Shown piece by piece: positions 1,540-64,000 of a stretch of 64,000 bases of DNA (position 1 is the stretch's first letter; the number at the start of each line of letters is the position of its first letter). Position numbers and translations under genes: made by a program. Under the pieces are notes generated by a model that saw only the letters and a list, made by a program, of their open reading frames with translations, searched no databases and was not told where the DNA came from. Origin of the DNA: Eledone cirrhosa (Eukaryota); the NCBI GenBank assembly GCA_964016885.1, contig OZ024751.1, forward strand, positions 24,118,001 through 24,182,000. The letters are read 5' to 3'.

Positions 1540-2565
<1,026 letters not shown>

Positions 2566-3565: not shown

Positions 3566-4165
3566 CTATTCTTTTAGTTTAGTGACTGTAATAGTAAAAA
3601 AAATATATAAAAGATGATTAGGAATTATTGTTCCATTATGAATAAGATAACCAGGTTAGCTCAATAAAGATACTTAGCATCCATATCTCAGCTATACATC
3701 CGTGTGATACAATATAAATACAGATAACTGAATCAGAAAGAAAATGATATTACCAGCCATGTCCTAGCTGTAAATCCGAACGGAACCCAAACAAGTACTT
3801 TTATTCTCAAACTTAAATGATTTTCAGTTGTTTTTGTTGTTGTCACTGTTCTACAACAACATTTATGAAGAAAATGTGCCATAGCTGATCAGTAAGTTAA
3901 ATAAATTTTATGTGAACAAGTTTATTATTGGAGATTTATCTGTAAAATAGTTAATGTATTGTGTGATGATGATTATAATAGAAGTAAAAGTGAAAATATA
4001 TGTTTTATTTGTAATATTGCAGTAGAATTATAAACGTAAAGCGGATATTTATTGTGGTGAAGTTTCTTGACGTAAATGAATTTATTAGCTGAATCTACAC
4101 ATATGTGAAATTGCATTTACATGCGATAACGTCACACAATTATTGAGACACTCCTACACATATAA

Positions 4166-18250: not shown

Positions 18251-18261
18251 CCATATACTTG

Positions 18262-18340
18262 TTTATTTGGTTCCTTTACCGGTTTCGCAGTTCTTCTGCT
18301 TTTCAAAAGTAGAGTTGAGATGGAGGGTCTGTGGTTTTTC

Positions 18341-18401: not shown

Positions 18402-18573
18402 CGTGTGTGTATGCTGAACCATATATATATATATATATATATATAATGTAGGAGGTGAGTTTTATTGTAGTACAATAAAGCAATGCAGATATCGGATAAG
18501 AAGCACTCTACAGTTTGTGGGACTGGAGTATACATAATATATAAGAACAAAAGATGGTTAAAGGAGTTCCATG

Positions 18574-18643
18574 TATTTTATTATACGTATTTCAAAACAA
18601 ATAGCATCATGCAATAATATTTGTGTTTTCATCAGATAAAACA
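18574..18643 (-). ncRNA. Hammerhead ribozyme family 2 (stem III ATACGTAT)
   Basis: Reverse complement reads tgttttat-CTGATGA-stem II-GAAA-TACGTATA-ataaaata. Confidence 0.8.
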
Positions 18644-19230
18644 GGAGGACATGATATGAACGCTAAAAAACACTTGTGGATAGTTCAGTTTTAAATCAAC
18701 ATATGAGAAGTAGTTTTAGATTGATGTGTGATATTGGGAAAAATATTTTATTTAGAGGGAGGGGTGGAATGGATGAAAAAAGAGGAGGAGATGAGAGTGA
18801 AGGTGGAGAGGGAGGAGTATAGTGAGGAAGGATGAGATAGGAGGAGAGATGGGTGATAGAGAGAGAGAGATAGTTTTTATAACTGAGAAAGATATATTGT
18901 TGTACATAGAGAGGTTGAAAACCGTTGGAAGATAATGTATAAATTAAAAGAATTTTCAACCTCTCTATGTAAAACAATATATCTTTCTCAGTTATAATAA
19001 CTATCTCTCTCTCTCTATCATCCATCTCTCCTCCTATCTCATCCTTCCTCACTATACTCCTCCCTCTCCACCTTCACTCTCATCTCCTCCTCTTTTTTCA
19101 TCCATTCCACCCCTCCCTCTAAATAAAATATTTTTCCCAATATCACACATCAATCTAAAACTACTTCTCATATGTTGATTTAAAACTGAACTATCCACAA
19201 GTGTTTTTTAGCGTTCATATCATGTCCTCC

Positions 19231-19301
19231 TGTTTTATCTGATGAAAACACAAATATTATTGCATGATGATATTTGTTTTAGAAATGCGCATAATAAAAT
19301 A
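19231..19301 (+). ncRNA. Hammerhead ribozyme family 2
   Basis: tgttttat-CTGATGA-stem II-GAAA-TGCGCATA-ataaaata. Confidence 0.8.
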
Positions 19302-19329
19302 CATGGAACTCCTTTAACCATCTTTTGTT

Positions 19330-21483
<2,154 letters not shown>

Positions 21484-26473: not shown

Positions 26474-26628
26474 GTTTGTGTGTGTGTGTGTGTGTTTGTG
26501 TGTATGGATGAGATGTTACCAGTAAAACCATTAATTATTCACCCTAATAACATATTCTTTAAAAGAAGCTAGATCCTAGATATTCTATGGATTCTTTGTT
26601 TTCAGTTTAAGCTACCGCAGACCAAGTC

Positions 26629-26668
<40 letters not shown>

Positions 26669-26669
<1 letters not shown>

Positions 26670-28380
26670 GATAACATCAGACAGTTGTTGAGCAAAAGTA
26701 TGAAGTCCTGGAAAACAGAGTTAGCATCAACTGGAGAATCCCTGGGAGGCGTGACGATCAAGAGAGGTATCTTCCAGGGAGATAGTCTGTCTCCTCTGTT
26801 GTTTGTCCTTGCCCTGATGCCCCTGACCATTATACTGCGAAAGGTGAGAGCAGGATACAAGTTGGGAAAGGGAGAGCTTAAGCTCTTCGGGAAGAGTGAG
26901 AAGGAGTTGGATGTGCTTGTTGACACTGTCCGTATTTTCAGCAATGATATATGTATGCAATTTGGTATTAGTAAGTGTGGAGTCCTTGTGATGAAGAGGG
27001 GTAAATTGAGCAGAAAAAACGGAATCCAGGTACCAATAGGTGAGATGATAAAGGAAATTGAAACTGAAGAAGGATACAAGTATTTGGGTATTCTGGTGGC
27101 TGATGACATCAACAACAACAAAATGAAGGAATTGATAAGATCTGAATACATTCGGAGAATAAGGAGCGTATTAAAGTCACATCTGAACAGTAGGAATGCC
27201 ATAAGTGCAGTAAAATCCTGAGCTGTGTCTATTATTAGGTACAGTGCGGGAATTCTGAGATGGAATGTTGCTGAACAAAAAGAAATGGATAAGAAGACTA
27301 GGAAGCTATTGACTATCTACAACATGTTCCACAAGAGGAGTGATGTCGATAGACTCTACTTAAGGAGATCTGAAGGTGGAAGAGGTCTTATTAGCATAGA
27401 GGACTGTGTTCAGATTGAGAAAAACATCCTACACAAATACGTGACCGATAGTAAGGAGCCAATGCTCAGAATTGTACTGAAGGAGAGGACAATAGACCAG
27501 GGGATGTCCAAGGAGGAAATAACAACGAGGAGAAAGAGCAGCCTTCATGAAAAATCCCTTCATAGTACCTTCTTTGAGAAAACGGAATTCAGAGATCCAC
27601 AGACATGGAACTGGTTGAGAAGAACAGACCTTAAAAAGGCTACAGAAGGAATGCTAATGGTTGCGCAAGAGCAGGCCCTCAAAACGAAGTGGCTGAAACA
27701 CCATATTTACAAGGAGGAGACTAGCCCACTGTGCAGGATCTGTGGAGAGAGAGAGAGGAGACTGTGGCTCACATTGTATCCGAGTGTAAACACCTAGCCC
27801 AGACTCACTATAAAGGCTGGAGACATGATGTGATGGGCAGGGTGATCCACTGGCACCTATGCAAAGTAAACAACTTACCACATTCTGAGAAGTGGTATGA
27901 GCATAAGCCAGAGTAGGTGATAGAAAACGATCAGGTAAAGCTGCTATGGGATTTTAGTATACAGACAGACAAAAAATTAGAACACAATAGGCCTGACCTG
28001 GTGGTTTTGGACAAGGAAAAAAGGTCATGCCTGATTGTAGATGTAGCCTTCCCATTTGACATGAGAGTGCAAGAGAAGGAGGGGGAGAAAATTAACCAAT
28101 ACCAGGACTTAAAGTGGGAGGTAAAAAGGATTTGGAACTGCCATGAAGTCAGAGTCGTCCCGATTGTCATAGGCGCACTAGGTACTATCTCAAAAAGTTT
28201 CCAAGGATGGTTAAAGAAAATTGGCTCCGCCCCGCTTTTTGGAACACTTCAAAAGGCATGCTTGCTGAGAACAGCAAGAACCCTCCGATACGTCCTGAAT
28301 ATCTGAAGCTGCATGTAGCGGCTTGATATTCATTTCAACAAACTTTCCAGTTAAATAACAGCAATGACTGAAACTCAAAG
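26669..28380 (+). mobile_element. 5'-truncated R4/Dong-clade non-LTR retrotransposon (RT C-terminal half, CCHC knuckle, REL endonuclease), pseudogenised
   Basis: GIFQGDSLSPLLF; YKYLGI; CRICGE..ETVAHIVSEC; RHD; RPDLVV..DVA..EK...Y; stops and frameshift; the YxDD segment is missing before LKLFGK; (TAA)n on both sides. Confidence 0.92.
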
Positions 28381-39011: not shown

Positions 39012-39434
<423 letters not shown>

Positions 39435-40333
39435 TTAGGGAGGGGGGGGGGGGTTGGAAAGGATGAAAAAAAGGGGAGGAGATGAGAGTGAAGGTGGAAA
39501 GGGAGAGATGGGTGATAGAGAGAAAGAGATAGTTTTTATAACTGAGAAAAAGATATAATGTTTTAATATAGAGAGGTTGGGAACCGTTGGAAGATAATGT
39601 ATAAATTAAAGGAATTTGAAAATTAACGAAGGGAAATTATGTATGAAGATAGAGAGAAAAAAATAATAATTGTGGGTGAATATTCTAACGTCAAAAGAAG
39701 AAATGTAGGAATTTTAAAATTAGCAAAGAGAAAAAGTTTATGTGTAGAAGGATTTGAGAAAAATAATGTGAAGTTAAAGTTTGTATATTGAATTCATATG
39801 TATTAATAATGAGTTCGTTGATGGGGAGAAAAAAATAATAATAAATTAAGGATGAAATTGAGATTAAAAAGATTTATGATAGAGAGAAAAAATAATAATG
39901 ATTGCGGATGAATACTCAAAATGTCAAAAACAAATGTTATTGTTTTACGAGGAGATAGAATGAGGGTAATGAGTAAACGAGTATTATAGAGTGTATAATG
40001 CCCTTTAAAGTAAGGTAGATGGGTATATTTTAAAGAATATATGAGTATATATTAAAAAAAAAAAAAAAAAAAATATATAATAATAAATTAAGGATGAAAT
40101 TGAGATTAAAAAGATTTATGATAGAGAGAAAAAATAATAATGATTGCGGATGAATATTCAAAATGTCAAAAACAAATGTTATTGTTTTACGAGAAGATAG
40201 AATGAGGGTAATGAGTAAACGAGTATTATAGAGTGTATAATGCCCTTTAAAGTAAGGTAGATGGGTATATTTTAAAGAGGTGTATGTATATGTGCCTTTG
40301 AGAAAAGATTCTAAATTGATAAAGAATTGAATA

Positions 40334-40696
40334 TTAACTGTATACTTTGTGAAAAGTTCTATGGAATTTATGCAGGCAGATAGAAAACAAATCCGAGCGT
40401 CTATTTATTATGGATTCTAGGTTAGAGATAATGGTAAATTTTTCATTTAGGCAGAGATTACAGATTTTAGATAGAGAGCTGTTCAAGTACGAGGATGCAG
40501 AAGAAATCTTTTTCCAAAAGATGTTATATTTAATGTTTTTGTCTTTTAAGGACCATATGAGTTCTGAGAGAGCAGGGTTAGTTCTTTTAAGTTTGTATTT
40601 GAAAGATGAATGATGATTATAGAGACGAGCTTTAAAAGAGGTGGAAGTGGAGCCAAAATAGGTGAAGGAATTGGTGCTAGTTATAATTTTACATTC
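40334..40696 (-). pseudogene. PLE GIY-YIG endonuclease C-terminal relic (one frameshift)
   Basis: ECKIITSTNSFTYFGSTSTSFKARLYNHHSSFKY...ALSELIWSLKDKNIKYNIFWK/SASSY...KICNLCLNEKFTII...IINRRSDLFSICLH. Confidence 0.8.
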
Positions 40697-40989
40697 CTAT
40701 CCTCCCTTCGTTAATTTTCAAAATTTTTAATTTATACAGTATCTTCCAACGGTTTTCAACCCCTCTATCTAAAATATATCTCCTCTCAGTTATAAAAACT
40801 ATCTCTTTCTCTCTATCACCCATCTCTCCCTCTCATCTCCTTCCCTTTTCATCCTTTTCTCTCCCCCCCCTCTCTAAATAAAATATTTTTCCCAATATCA
40901 CACATCAATCTAAAACCACTTTTCATATGTTGATTTAAAACTGCACTATCAACAAGTGTTTTTTTTTTAGCCTTCATATCATGTTCTCC

Positions 40990-41060
40990 TGTTTTATCTG
41001 ATGAAAACACAAATATTATTGTTTGATGATGTTTGTTTTTGAAATGCGCATAATAAAATA
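40990..41060 (+). ncRNA. Hammerhead ribozyme family 2
   Basis: tgttttat-CTGATGA-stem II-GAAA-TGCGCATA-ataaaata. Confidence 0.8.
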
Positions 41061-41181
41061 TATTGAACTCCTTTAACCATCTTTTGATCTTATATTATGC
41101 ATACTCCAGTCCCACAAACTGTAGAGTGCTTCTTATCCGATATCTGCATTGCTTTATTGTACTACAATAAAACTCACCTCC

Positions 41182-41264
<83 letters not shown>

Positions 41265-47972: not shown

Positions 47973-48346
47973 CATATATATATATACACATGTATATATA
48001 TATATATTTACACATATATATAAATATAAATCTATACATATATATATATGCATACATATGTATGTATCTATGCATATATGTAAATATGTATATACACATA
48101 CATATATATATGTATATATATATATATATATATTTATACACATTCATATATACATGTATATATGTGTATATACATATGTGTATATATATATATATATATA
48201 TACATGTGTACATATATATATATAAATATGTACACACACACACAGAAATATATATATATATATATAATACATACGTATGCTTGAGGCAATCGCTAGCAAT
48301 AAAGGGTAAATTAATAAAAAACCTATATGTGTGTATGTATATATAT

Positions 48347-48883
48347 GAGAAAAACCACAGACCCTCCATCTCAACTCTACTTTTGAAAAGCAGAAGAACT
48401 GCGAAAGCGGTAAAGGAACCAAATAAATATATATATATATTTTTTAATAAGACTCCAGTTGCATTTTCGATTTCAGCTTTTTTTCTTTATACTTTCACTC
48501 GTGTAGTACACCTCGGTTATTTTTCATTTTGTAAAAAAAAACCTCACTTTCTAATATATATATATATATATATTAGAAAGTGAGGTTTTTTTTACAAAAT
48601 GAAAAATAACCGAGGTGTCCTACACGAGTGGAAGTATAAAGAAAAAGGGATGAAATCGAAAATGCAACTGAAGTCTTATTTTTTTAAAAAATATATATAT
48701 TTATTTGGTTCCTTTACCGGTTTTGCAGTTCACATCTCAGATGTGAGAAAAACCACAGACCCTCCACCTCAACTCACCTTTTGAAAAGCAGAAGAACTGC
48801 GAAACCGGTAAAGGAACCAAATAAATATATATATTTTTTTTAAAAATAAGACTTCAGTTGCATTTTCGATTTCATCCCTTTTT

Positions 48884-48890
<7 letters not shown>
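48347..48890. mobile_element. Family-3 forward/reverse/forward cluster; HHR variants at about 48377-48417 and 48777-48814
   Basis: CCTT-TTGAAAA-GCAG aagaa CTGC-GAAACCGGTA-AAGG at 48777-48814. Confidence 0.8.
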
Positions 48891-48936
<46 letters not shown>

Positions 48937-49262
48937 CAACAGGCTCTTCAATAGCCTATTGATCATATGAAGAAGTATACAAAGGAACGAAGGTACACTA
49001 TGTTTCCAGCTATTCAATAATGATAAATAATATTTTAATGCCTTAGAAAACATCTAGAATAAAAAACAAACCAGAACAATGCTCTCTGATGCTTTAAAGA
49101 AACGAATAAATAATGGCGGAACGAAATAGAAGGTGAACGAAATCTTTTCAGAATCTAAAACTTCCTCCCAAAGATAAAATATTTCTAAATCTAAAATATT
49201 GACACCCTTGCATAATTCATTAATTCACAATTGCTTTTGCTACAACAACAACAACAACAACA

Positions 49263-49357
<95 letters not shown>

Positions 49358-49978
49358 GACTGTGGCTCACATTGTATCCGAGTGTAAACACCTAGCCCAG
49401 ACTCACTATAAAGGCTGGAGACATGATGTGATGGGCAGGGTGATCCACTGGCACCTATGCAAAGTAAACAATTTACCACATTCTGAGAAGTGGTATGAGC
49501 ATAAGCCAGAGTCGGTGATAGAAAACGATCAGGTGAAGGTGCTGTGGGATTTTAGGATACAGACGGACAAGAAACTGGAACACAATAGACCTGACCTGGT
49601 GGTTGTGGACAAAGAAAAAAGATCGTGCCTGATTGTGGATGTGGCCTGCCCATTCGACACGAGAGTGCAAGAAAAGGAGAGGGTTAAAATTAACCGATAC
49701 CAGGACTTAAAGTGAGAGGTAAAAAGGATTTGGAACTGCCATGAAGTCAAAGTGGTCCCGATTGTCATAGGCGCACTAGGTACTATCTCAAAAGGTTTCC
49801 AGGGATGGTTAAAGAAAATTGGCCCCGCCCCGCTTTTTGGAACACTTCAAAAGGCATGCTTGCTGGGAACAGCAAGAACCCTCCGATACGTCCTGAATAT
49901 CTGAGGCTGCAGGTAGTGGCTTCATATTCATTTCAACAAACTTTCCAGTTAACTAACATCAATGACTGAGACTCAAAG
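49358..49978 (+). mobile_element. Second, more truncated copy of the R4/Dong LINE
   Basis: Highly similar to 27760-28380; preceded and followed by (TAA)n. Confidence 0.92.
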
Positions 49979-57825: not shown

Positions 57826-58043
57826 GTACATATATATATATATATATTTCGTTTCTGAATTTGTTTAGCAAGATTCTTTACCTGAAAACGTGTGTTGAAA
57901 CCGATATTGTTATACTTTGGGAGGGTCATGTTGCCAATAAGAAACACACGCACCAGTTGCTTTCACTTCAATTTATTATAAATTAAATTTATAAATTTCC
58001 GGTTGGTTGGTTAGTTCCACAACCAGACGATTGTTCATATATT

Positions 58044-58086
58044 GTCAAAGTTCTTTCGTCACACATTCTGTTACCTCTTCAGTGAC
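58044..58086 (-). ncRNA. Hammerhead ribozyme family 5
   Basis: Reverse complement reads GTCA-CTGAAGA-g-GTAACA gaatg TGTGAC-GAAAG AA CTT-TGAC. Confidence 0.7.
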
Positions 58087-58633
58087 TGGGGATTCTTTTC
58101 TTTGTTTTTGTGCCTCTCCTTTGTTCTGTCCTACGCCATCTTGTTTTTGTGTGTGTTGTGTGCTTAGTTTGCGCATGTGTTACATCCGGGTGTCTGTGTG
58201 AGTTTATATTTGTTTATTTATTTGTTTATTTATATGTTAGTGGTTGGTTGTTTGTTCTATGTGTGTGTGTGTTTTCATTTTGTCCTTAATTGTAAGTTGT
58301 GATGTTGCTATTCCATTAATGTTTTCTATTTAATTTTGGTTGGCGTTCATTTATGTTTATTGCCTTTGTGGTTTGTCTAAACATTGCGTCTTTTCTGTGT
58401 GTAGATTCTATTTTTATTTCTAACTTACAATTAAGGACAAAATGAAAACACACACACATATAGAACTAACAACAAACCTCTAACATGTAAATAAACAAAT
58501 AAATAAACAAATATAAACACACACAGACACCCGGATGTAACACATGCGCAAACTAAGCACACAGCACACACAAAAACAAGATGGCGTAGGACAGAACAAA
58601 GAAGAGGCACAAAAACAAAGAAAAGGATCCCCA

Positions 58634-58676
58634 GTCACTGAAGAGGTCACAGAATGTGTGATGAAAGAACTTTGAC
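58634..58676 (+). ncRNA. Hammerhead ribozyme family 5
   Basis: GTCA-CTGAAGA-g-GTCACA gaatg TGTGAT-GAAAG AA CTT-TGAC. Confidence 0.72.
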
Positions 58677-59484
58677 AATATATGAACAATCGTCTGGTTG
58701 TGGAACCAACCAACCAACCGGAAATTTATAAATTCCTAAATTTATAAATTTAATTTATAATAAATTGAAGTGAAAGCAACTGGTGCGTGTGTTTCTTATT
58801 GGCAACATGACCCTCCCAAAGCATAACAATATATATATATATATACAGTCACTCTACTTCCTAACTCTTCTCCTCTTTCCTCTCTCTCTATACTATTCCG
58901 TTTGTCCCCTCACCTTCTAATTCCTCTTCCTCTCTCTCTATACTAGTAAATACAATTAAAAAAAATATATTTCTCTCTATATATTAAGAACTATTTCAAG
59001 AGTAACTTACTCACTATTTTGAAAATCTGGACGTGAACAACAATTATAATTGAGTGGCTGCTATTTGCAGTATAGCAATATAAGGTTGCACTTACCAATG
59101 AAACGGTCGTAAATACCTGGATAAATTCCTTCTCACGAAGTGTTCAACATATTCTATCTAAATGTACTATTTTTATAAAGATAGGAATTTAATAGTAAAC
59201 AACATATTACGTGACGCCTTGGGACAACAAATTTCAGTGAGTGAGTATGTTTATAGTGAAGGAGATTAGCTGAGTGGGTAGATAATTAGATTCGTCATCG
59301 TGAGGTTGTGAGTTCGATTACTGGACAGGGTGACGTGATATGACTTTGAGCAAGATATTTTATTTCACGTTCGCTCCTTCTACCTGGAGTTGCGACCGAT
59401 AGATAGTATAGGCAATTGGAAATACCAATGGAAACATTGTTTCCTCGGTCCGATTTGACGAAAATCGATCTACTGTCGATATAA

Positions 59485-61582: not shown

Positions 61583-61658
<76 letters not shown>

Positions 61659-61691
61659 GTATATAAATGTATATATATATATATTTATATG

Positions 61692-62493
<802 letters not shown>

Positions 62494-63667: not shown

Positions 63668-63802
<135 letters not shown>

Positions 63803-63914
63803 ACCGTTAAGGCTGTCTTTTTTTCCGGGTATGTCAATATTTATTTATAAAAGAAATCTGTATTTTATGTGATGAAAGCGCACCATAATTTGCCTTGGTT
63901 CCTCTTGAAATATA

Positions 63915-63979
<65 letters not shown>

Positions 63980-64000
63980 TTATGAAATACCAATAATGAA

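What the first reader, a model, noticed from the sequence alone, without database searches (positions are those of the whole stretch)
39430..41186. GIY-YIG coding relic ties HHR family 2 to a Naiad-like PLE
Seen: minus strand 40334-40696 gives ...TYFGSTSTSFKARLYNHHSSF...LSELIWSLKD...W...CNLCLNEK...INRRSDL...C.H, which the ORF track missed. It is followed by a long AT-rich 3' region, and an inverted copy of that region carrying the HHR lies directly upstream (40700-41186). From recall, this YIG..FKxRxxNH..LSxxIWxLK..CxLCLxEK..LNxRxE..CxH pattern matches Naiad-type PLE endonucleases. Inference: this is the autonomous parent type of the non-coding copies at 1750-1915 and 18446-19334.
Basis: partly seen in the sequence, partly recalled or inferred. 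Interest (0 to 1): 0.72.

Follow-up and report, generated by a model that had tools for sequence, protein, structure and literature searches.

The report
Young flipped Hydra-clade Penelope insertion
This 1.8-kb stretch is a recent, cut-short and partly flipped copy of an abundant Penelope-like jumping gene of the known Hydra group (not Naiad), and the shapes of its sister copies suggest that the element likely copies one RNA into both ends of a cut TA repeat, starting at two fixed points.

Summary
The peptide is real (minus 40696-40334, no stops) but is neither a relic nor Naiad. It is the C-terminal GIY-YIG end of an 800-aa RT-then-endonuclease ORF of a very young family: 150 of 150 scored genomic hits are 99-100% identical, 21 in full-length frames. 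Naiads have an N-terminal endonuclease with CCHH and no hammerhead; this family has the Hydra-clade marks (DKT, CxCx5C, no CCHH, CxxC/CxH, hammerhead, (TA)n target). The plus-strand piece 40698-41185 is not an inverted copy of the 3' region but its continuation, flipped; 14 nt are missing at the flip. The copies at 1745-1920 and 18446-19336 are short truncated copies of a sister subfamily that has its own coding copies. Family-wide, 79 of 80 two-armed insertions with standard ends pair one arm ending at unit position 3893 with one ending at 3806. Two insertions are rolled tandems of a 185/204-nt unit without ribozyme or ORF, whose private junction lies in both arms. Best reading: both DNA ends are primed on one RNA at two start sites (inferred). 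New member of a known clade; moderate mechanistic interest.

The parts
39395..39429 (.). (TA)n target, left flank; its last 6 nt (39424-39429) also fit the element
   Evidence: sequence; alignment end at 39424
39424..40696 (-). Inverted arm: unit positions U2120-3395 (end of ORF plus first two thirds of the 3' UTR); outer end at a TA-rich site, not at the family's usual U3806
   Evidence: 98.2% without gaps to L022:5772-7050; unit = L022:3656-7548
40334..40696 (-). C-terminal 120 aa plus stop of the Hydra-type GIY-YIG endonuclease (YFG, R, H, CxxC, E, N, CxH); lacks linker, LIY motif and a start codon, so predicted non-functional
   Evidence: fold of the intact domain matches I-TevI
39829..40278 (-). 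Two 208-nt copies, 242 nt apart, 98% alike: an internal repeat of the family's 3' UTR, present in intact copies too
39426..39634 (-). First of two ~210-nt C/T-rich UTR repeats (B1); 80% alike to B2 in the other arm, which mimics an inverted repeat
40697..40699 (.). Head-to-head junction: one base (40697) fits neither arm; alternatively 2 nt of microhomology with a mismatch
40698..41185 (+). Forward arm: U3410-3893, the 3' end of the element (B2 repeat, hammerhead, 87-nt tail)
   Evidence: 99.6% without gaps to L022:7065-7563
40992..41058 (+). Type I hammerhead motif: stem I TTTTAT/ATAAAA, core CTGATGA, long stem II, GAA, 8-nt palindromic stem III, predicted cut 41052|41053; predicted to work only as a dimer
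   Evidence: dimer rule from PMC4209133 passages; no Rfam hit at gathering score; cleavage untested
41099..41185 (+). 87-nt tail (U3807-3893) between the family's two fixed 3' ends
41186..41254 (.). (TA)n target, right flank; a target-site duplication cannot be read
   Evidence: sequence
18446..19336 (.). Separate insertion of sister subfamily B: head-to-head pair of short 3' ends, one with the tail (outer end 18446), one without (19336)
1745..1920 (+). Separate single-armed 176-nt 3' end without tail, closer to subfamily B

Best explanation
The stretch 39424-41185 is one recent, 5'-truncated insertion of an intact-ORF Hydra-clade Penelope-like family into a (TA)n repeat, with its two parts joined head to head; it was likely made by the element's enzyme priming both cut DNA ends on one RNA. 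Shown: family membership, youth, domain order, the two arms and their coordinates. Inferred mechanism: the C-terminal GIY-YIG domain nicks both strands of (TA)n; each 3' end is extended by the telomerase-like RT from an internal start site of the RNA, normally one at U3893 and the other at U3806 (hence the tail on one arm only); the two cDNA ends are then joined. In this copy the second end would have started at a TA-rich site (U3395, 6 nt pairing with the target) and the first cDNA stopped 14 nt short of it. The hammerhead is likely not needed for insertion. The copy itself is predicted dead.
For: 150 of 150 scored hits 99-100% identical, 21 in 821-aa frames; 24 Met-to-stop ORFs counted in fetched loci, one a double count. 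RT N-terminal and TERT-like (VIA Z 17.5, rmsd 2.8-3.5, 274-288 aligned); C-terminal domain GIY-YIG (I-TevI Z 8.9, rmsd 2.3, 89 aligned). Hydra motifs. Arms contiguous in the unit. 117 loci, 96 head-to-head junctions, 6 cut by the locus edge; of 90: 79 pair U3893 with U3806, 1 pairs like ends, 10 have another end. In 38 of 65 simple pairs neither arm can be a copy of the other. 10 of 45 U3893 segments with inner end above U3000 stop at U3775-3800, beside the second start site (38.5 per 100 nt against 1-6 in all other bins but one). Two insertions are tandems of a permuted 185- or 204-nt unit with the same two outer ends; each junction occurs at one locus only, in both arms (3+5 and 2+2). In vitro precedent for two internal start sites, extension of both strands and a dispensable ribozyme: PMC11167929.
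Against: No activity was measured. The window copy is the exception: its U3395 end was found at no other copy (1 of 1 and 1 of 3 pattern hits), no hairpin is predicted beside it, and inner ends cluster at U3380-3410 anyway (6 of 45), so the 14-nt gap is weak evidence for this copy. In most pairs the arms overlap by hundreds of bases, which on one RNA needs strand displacement or successive copying. 27 of 65 pairs are nested and 8 of 65 are near-perfect fold-backs (2.8 expected, p 0.006), so some second arms may be copied from cDNA. In the mini-tandems one arm could be a fold-back copy of the other. Loci were chosen by endonuclease hits, so they are long, young copies. Tail hairpins are not significant (z -0.7 to -1.5).
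Confidence: 0.7

Rival explanations
1. Same family, but this copy was first a standard U3806/U3893 pair and later lost U3396-3806 by slippage or recombination between the TA-rich U3385-3395 site and the flanking (TA)n.
For: The U3395 end is unique; a forward arm starting near U3410 is common anyway (6 of 45); the site has 6 nt in common with the flank.
Against: The copy is very young (0-2 substitutions per piece to nearest relatives); the arms abut within 14 nt; a few other copies also end at other TA-rich sites (L037, L126).
Confidence: 0.3
2. Inverted arms arise by self-priming or fold-back (one primed cDNA or an antisense RNA turns back on itself) and the tail by endonuclease resolution, as proposed in PMC3846280 and PMC8557442.
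For: 8 of 65 near-symmetric junctions; 27 of 65 nested; passages.
Against: 38 of 65 pairs cannot be copies of each other; the window's arms share no unit sequence; PMC11167929 maps the tail ends to RT start sites.
Confidence: 0.12
3. Both ends are primed on RNA, but on two RNA molecules held by a protein dimer whose two halves use different start sites.
For: Explains long overlaps between arms without strand displacement; a dimer is predicted for PAc.
Against: One-off 185/204-nt junctions lie in both arms; U3893 arms pile up just past U3806.
Confidence: 0.15
4. One reading: a decayed Naiad endonuclease, parent of separate non-autonomous hammerhead elements.
For: GIY-YIG fold; (TA)n target and inverted structure are shared with Naiads; the other copies are 81-90% alike.
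Against: C-terminal endonuclease, no CCHH, DKT, hammerhead present, no in-frame TGA; in 77 of 77 homologs where both motifs were found (of 150) RT precedes EN; the other copies have their own coding subfamily.
Confidence: 0.01

Closest known systems
Hydra clade of C-terminal EN+ Penelope-like elements, e.g. Hydra-1_Obim (Craig et al. 2021, PMC8557442)
   Same: Single ORF, RT then GIY-YIG; DKT; CxCx5C linker; no CCHH; CxxC and CxH around E and N; canonical hammerhead; (TA)n target; motif blocks match the Fig. S7 rows by eye.
   Different: Unit 3,893 nt (Hydra 'generally <3 kb'), with a 1.4-kb 3' UTR holding two internal repeat pairs; RWT for RWK; an Asn-rich disordered insert before the linker (model residues 590-652); hammerhead sequence and protein differ from Hydra-1_Obim; thousands of ends in the genome; tail 87 nt rather than 30-40.
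Poseidon element PAc of Anolis carolinensis (Frangieh et al. 2024, PMC11167929)
   Same: Two internal RT start sites bounding the tail; both strands cut and extended; AT-rich target; ribozyme dispensable; sequence 3' of the start sites needed.
   Different: Other clade; here both start sites lie before the ORF; the one-site-per-DNA-end pairing was not reported for PAc (no strand difference seen in bulk).
Naiad clade (PMC8557442)
   Same: GIY-YIG PLE, (TA)n preference, inverted 5'-truncated copies, one-sided tail.
   Different: Naiad: EN N-terminal, CCHH present, DKA, CxC, no canonical hammerhead, some selenoproteins; none holds here.
Twin priming of L1
   Same: Head-to-head arms that are contiguous in the RNA, with a small loss or gain at the flip and pairing of the target with an internal site.
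   Different: In this family two-ended priming looks like the rule with fixed start sites, and arms usually overlap.
Metazoan non-LTR retrozymes (bioRxiv 10.64898/2026.07.22.740005; PMC7229834 listing only)
   Same: The two mini-tandem insertions (L165, L166) are short non-coding tandem units taken from a PLE's pLTR region.
   Different: They lack the hammerhead, occur at one locus each, and the window's 'non-coding' copies are plain truncated ends, not tandems.

Membership tests
Naiad PLE | GIY-YIG endonuclease N-terminal to RT | tested here: not met
   EN is the last ~140 aa of the 800-aa ORF, RT before it
Naiad PLE | CCHH motif with two cysteines between GIY and YIG | tested here: not met
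   one Cys (703) between LIY and YFG, not conserved in homologs
Naiad PLE | DKA motif | tested here: not met
   DKT at 144
Naiad PLE | No canonical hammerhead | tested here: not met
   hammerhead motif in the pLTR of intact copies
Naiad PLE | In-frame UGA / SECIS (optional, some members) | tested here: not met
   0 in-frame TGA, stop TAA; no Rfam hit in the window; SECISearch not available
Hydra PLE | Single ORF with RT and C-terminal GIY-YIG | tested here: met
Hydra PLE | DKG changed to DKT | tested here: met
Hydra PLE | RWK motif near the N-terminus | tested here: met
   RW at 58 in the aligned column, third residue T instead of K; homologs vary there too
Hydra PLE | Linker CxCx5C | tested here: met
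   C680-x-C682-x5-C688 plus C694, invariant in 68 of 68 aligned
Hydra PLE | No CCHH; CxxC and CxH around catalytic E and N | tested here: met
   CNLC 780, E786, N799, CLH 808
Hydra PLE | Canonical hammerhead near the 3' end | tested here: met
   core, stems and palindromic stem III by pattern and fold; cleavage itself untested
Hydra PLE | Insertion into (TA)n | tested here: met
   flanks; 5,385 and 7,930 exact end-plus-TA matches
Hydra PLE | Length generally under 3 kb (tendency) | tested here: not met
   unit 3,893 nt because of a long 3' UTR; not a diagnostic feature in the paper
Hydra PLE | RT groups with Hydra in a tree or CLANS map | not testable with these tools
   named reference sequences could be read in the supplement but not entered into a tool; compared by eye only
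Non-autonomous retrozyme (copies at 1745 and 18446) | Tandem hammerhead units with no link to coding sequence | tested here: not met
   15 of their 20 closest fetched relatives run into the family's ORF; not tandem

The most novel reading that the evidence does not exclude
Penelope-like elements integrate by programmed twin priming: one RNA, two fixed start sites 87 nt apart, one for each end of a double-strand cut in (TA)n. This family records it almost without exception (79 of 80), and two one-off insertions show that a circle of 185-204 nt spanning both start sites and 75-88 nt downstream, without ribozyme or ORF, is enough to be copied by rolling round from both DNA ends. That gives a natural minimal template, a birth route for retrozyme-like tandems, and an intact, very young Hydra enzyme on which to test it.
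Probability: 0.55. Interest if true: 0.65.

Novelty: new member of a known kind. Interest (0 to 1): 0.42.

Why it matters
The window copy is an ordinary dead insertion. The family matters because how PLEs make their inverted arms and one-sided tail is an open question (stated in PMC8557442 and PMC11167929), the one full-length PLE protein assayed in PMC11167929 is of another clade, and this family offers many intact ORFs, two exactly mapped ends and two natural mini-templates, which turn the question into a simple assay. It also corrects annotation: such hairpin-shaped hammerhead pieces are truncated PLE ends, not a separate element class.

Tried and rejected
Rfam scan of the window at gathering score: 0 hits, the hammerhead was found by pattern. 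Pfam: GIY-YIG E 0.0021, below cut-off, for the 120-aa piece; nothing relevant for the whole ORF; 3 of 23 aligned members hit RVT_1 and 1 of 23 GIY-YIG. Word-index protein search with the short peptide against longer proteins: 338 candidates, none significant. PDB by sequence profile: 3 weak RT hits. Foldseek with the EN model: no hit at E 0.001, though the top rows were GIY-YIG enzymes. Names for 10 homologs: none carry one. Sequencing runs: no RNA holder listed; contigs of 4 runs laid on the stretch gave no listed piece across the junction at 40697, which shows nothing either way. Unconstrained fold of the hammerhead region did not give the hammerhead and was not better than shuffles (z -1.3). 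Hairpins beside the two start sites: predicted but not significant. Linkage markers between the two arms: two window markers were private, so haplotype match was not shown. Search of earlier notes near this place and by sequence: nothing. Selenoprotein idea rejected (no TGA). No tree was built.

Full report
Observation. The minus strand 40696-40334 gives the quoted 120-aa peptide with no stop. It begins directly after a stop and has no start codon. A hammerhead-type motif lies at + 40992-41058 and three close relatives at 1813, 18635 (minus) and 19239. Rfam gave 0 hits at gathering score. The peptide has a weak Pfam GIY-YIG hit (E 0.0021, below cut-off).

The family. In the own genome (3.0 Gb; window = G000:C11:24118001-24182000) 150 of 150 scored matches, out of 55,656 first-look candidates, are 99-100% identical with no stop inside, and 21 lie in 821-aa open frames. 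Intact copies read RT first and the endonuclease last, with a hammerhead identical to the window's about 1.2 kb after the stop and again about 200 nt before the next ORF. The Met-to-stop ORF is 800 aa; 24 were counted in 22 fetched loci, one of them twice because two loci overlap; 13 of the 23 counts of 800 aa are identical to the reference. I took one natural unit, L022:3656-7548 (3,893 nt), as ruler 'U'. An AlphaFold model (pLDDT 89.5) matches telomerase RTs best over residues 1-490 (Z 17.5, rmsd 2.8-3.5, 274-288 aligned; other RTs close behind). The C-terminal domain folded alone (pLDDT 92.1) matches I-TevI (Z 8.9, rmsd 2.3, 89 aligned), T4 EndoII (7.4) and UvrC (5.8). Exact end-plus-TA patterns occur 5,385 times (U3806 end) and 7,930 times (U3893 end), the pLTR-ORF junction 46 times, controls 0; these patterns do not separate subfamilies. 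The host was not identified here; earlier scan notes call it an octopod (unchecked).

Clade. Craig et al. 2021 (PMC8557442; I read the abstract, introduction, first results, sections 11, 12, 15, passages, and supplement parts 1, 2, 58, 59 and search hits) define Naiad by an N-terminal endonuclease with CCHH, DKA and no canonical hammerhead, and Hydra by a C-terminal endonuclease without CCHH, RWK, DKT, CxCx5C, CxxC and CxH around E and N, a hammerhead and (TA)n targets. The protein has RW(T) 58, DKT 144, CNCRIKNKC 680, CNLC 780, CLH 808 and no cysteine pair between LIY and YFG. These cysteines and the catalytic Y, G, R, H are invariant in 68 of 68 aligned sequences (67 homologs picked from the 150 best). 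Among those 150 homologs both an RT and an EN motif were found in 77, RT first in all 77. There is no in-frame TGA. No tree with named references was possible. The family differs from Hydra-1_Obim in protein and hammerhead (by eye), is longer than typical Hydra elements and has an Asn-rich disordered insert, recalling the N-rich inserts of rotifer Penelopes (PMC3846280, passages).

Anatomy of this copy. The minus arm 40696-39424 is U2120-3395 (98.2% without gaps); the plus arm 40698-41185 is U3410-3893 (99.6%). So the plus piece continues the minus piece, flipped, with 14 nt missing, and both outer ends run into (TA)n. The apparent inverted repeat is the pair of ~210-nt UTR repeats, one in each arm. 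Nearest fetched relatives differ by 1-2 nt in the ORF part, 0-1 substitutions in 893 nt of UTR and 1-2 in the plus arm: a young copy, dead by truncation, not by decay.

The 'non-coding' copies. I fetched 20 of the 42 matches to 18446-18959. 15 of 20 run into the family ORF at 87-96% protein identity to the young type. Median identity of 1745-1920, 18446-18959 and 18953-19336 is 95.5, 96.7 and 96.6% to these loci against 90.4, 83.9 and 81.1% to the young type; the window's plus arm shows the reverse (84.3 against 98.5). The second figure is high by construction; the first is independent. This sister subfamily has at least 150 endonuclease copies at 95-100% (3 with a TGA inside), 3 in frames of 809-819 aa. 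So these are short truncated ends of a sister autonomous subfamily; 18446-19336 is a standard pair with the tail on one arm. Mobilisation in trans by the young type cannot be excluded but is not needed.

How it likely works. I mapped 117 loci chosen by endonuclease hits (120 fetched; L022, L025, L038 dropped as overlaps). Of 96 head-to-head junctions 6 were cut by the locus edge; of 90, 79 pair an arm ending at U3893 with one ending at U3806, 1 pairs two U3893 ends, none two U3806 ends, and 10 have another end (a looser merge that included the window gave 81 of 91). Independent choice of ends would give half like pairs (p about 1e-22). In 38 of 65 simple pairs neither arm can be a copy of the other, so both were most likely made on RNA. 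Of 45 U3893-ended segments with inner end above U3000, 10 stop at U3775-3800, just past the second site, and 6 at U3380-3410. Following closely spaced junction hits, two insertions proved to be head-to-head tandems of a permuted unit: 185 nt (U3795/7-3893 + U1-88; L165) and 204 nt (U3764/5-3893 + U1-75; L166), with outer ends U3893 and U3806, no hammerhead and no ORF (2 of 14 loci fetched). Each junction occurs at one locus only and in both arms (3+5, 2+2). The 204-nt unit begins 3-4 nt after the predicted ribozyme cut (U3760|3761). Inference: a one-off small RNA, likely circular, was copied round and round from both DNA ends. Frangieh et al. 2024 (PMC11167929; main text parts 1-2 read) showed for a Poseidon element two internal start sites that bound the tail, cutting and extension of both strands, need for RNA 3' of the start, and no need for ribozyme cleavage. 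Cervera and de la Pena 2014 (PMC4209133, passages) proposed circular templates and dimer-only hammerheads; stem III here is an 8-nt palindrome in 245 of 249 motifs matched. Together: the enzyme likely primes both ends of a cut in (TA)n on one RNA, one end per start site.

Against. Nothing was assayed. The window copy has a unique U3395 end and inner ends cluster near U3410 anyway, so twin priming at an off-site TA tract and a later deletion are both open (about 70:30). Long overlaps between arms need strand displacement or two RNAs. 8 of 65 junctions are near-symmetric (2.8 expected, p 0.006), so fold-back, as proposed in PMC3846280, may make some. In mini-tandems a fold-back copy, repeated template jumps or a lost DNA tandem source are not excluded. 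Hairpins at the start sites are not significant.

What is known. [quoted passage not shown] In six searches I found no paper stating one start site per DNA end or ribozyme-free mini-circles; 'twin priming' had 0 occurrences in the four PLE papers listed. The library lacks most subscription papers, and supplements of the bioRxiv preprint and of Frangieh et al. were not seen. L1 twin priming is recalled, not read. Earlier notes of this scan reached the Hydra and two-start reading for other windows of this genome; they are not independent support, and I had written that reading before seeing them.

Verdict. Interest 0.42, carried by the family's end-pairing rule and the two mini-tandems rather than by this copy.

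Noticed in passing
L165:1003-2356 (G000:C13, about 36269500-36270860) and L166:1160-1984 (G000:C2, about 216011660-216012480): Head-to-head tandems of a permuted 185-nt or 204-nt pLTR/5'UTR unit of this family, without hammerhead or ORF, with the two standard outer ends; junctions unique in the genome.
   Followed up: yes
window 39111-39391, 48346-48931, 18253-18340: Another fold-back family in (TA)n, directly left of the insertion, with the same shape (one arm about 85 nt longer) but no canonical hammerhead core seen.
   Followed up: partly
window 29530, 34860 (minus), 43608, and a weak match at 63734-63980: A second hammerhead family (different stem II, similar TA-rich stem I and 3' end), 67-88% alike among copies.
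   Followed up: no
window 57904-58832 and 61640-62469: Two further head-to-head pairs with outward hammerhead-like cores; the second has a 328-nt period.
   Followed up: no
window 26580-27795 (+) and 49224-49713 (+): Fragments that look like a non-LTR retrotransposon RT and its C-terminal region (R4/Dong-like by recall).
   Followed up: no
L149, L153, L155, L157, L160: More distant Hydra-type ORF pieces (32-62% identity) near subfamily B insertions: several Hydra families in this genome.
   Followed up: no
unit U3380-3410 and U3588-3622: Inner ends of arms cluster at the end of both C-rich UTR repeats, a possible RT stall or joining hotspot.
   Followed up: partly
runs X5 and X6 on window 40557-40696: Contigs from two other coded organisms hold the endonuclease stretch with one difference, at low depth; source unclear (diet, mixture or close species).
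   Followed up: no
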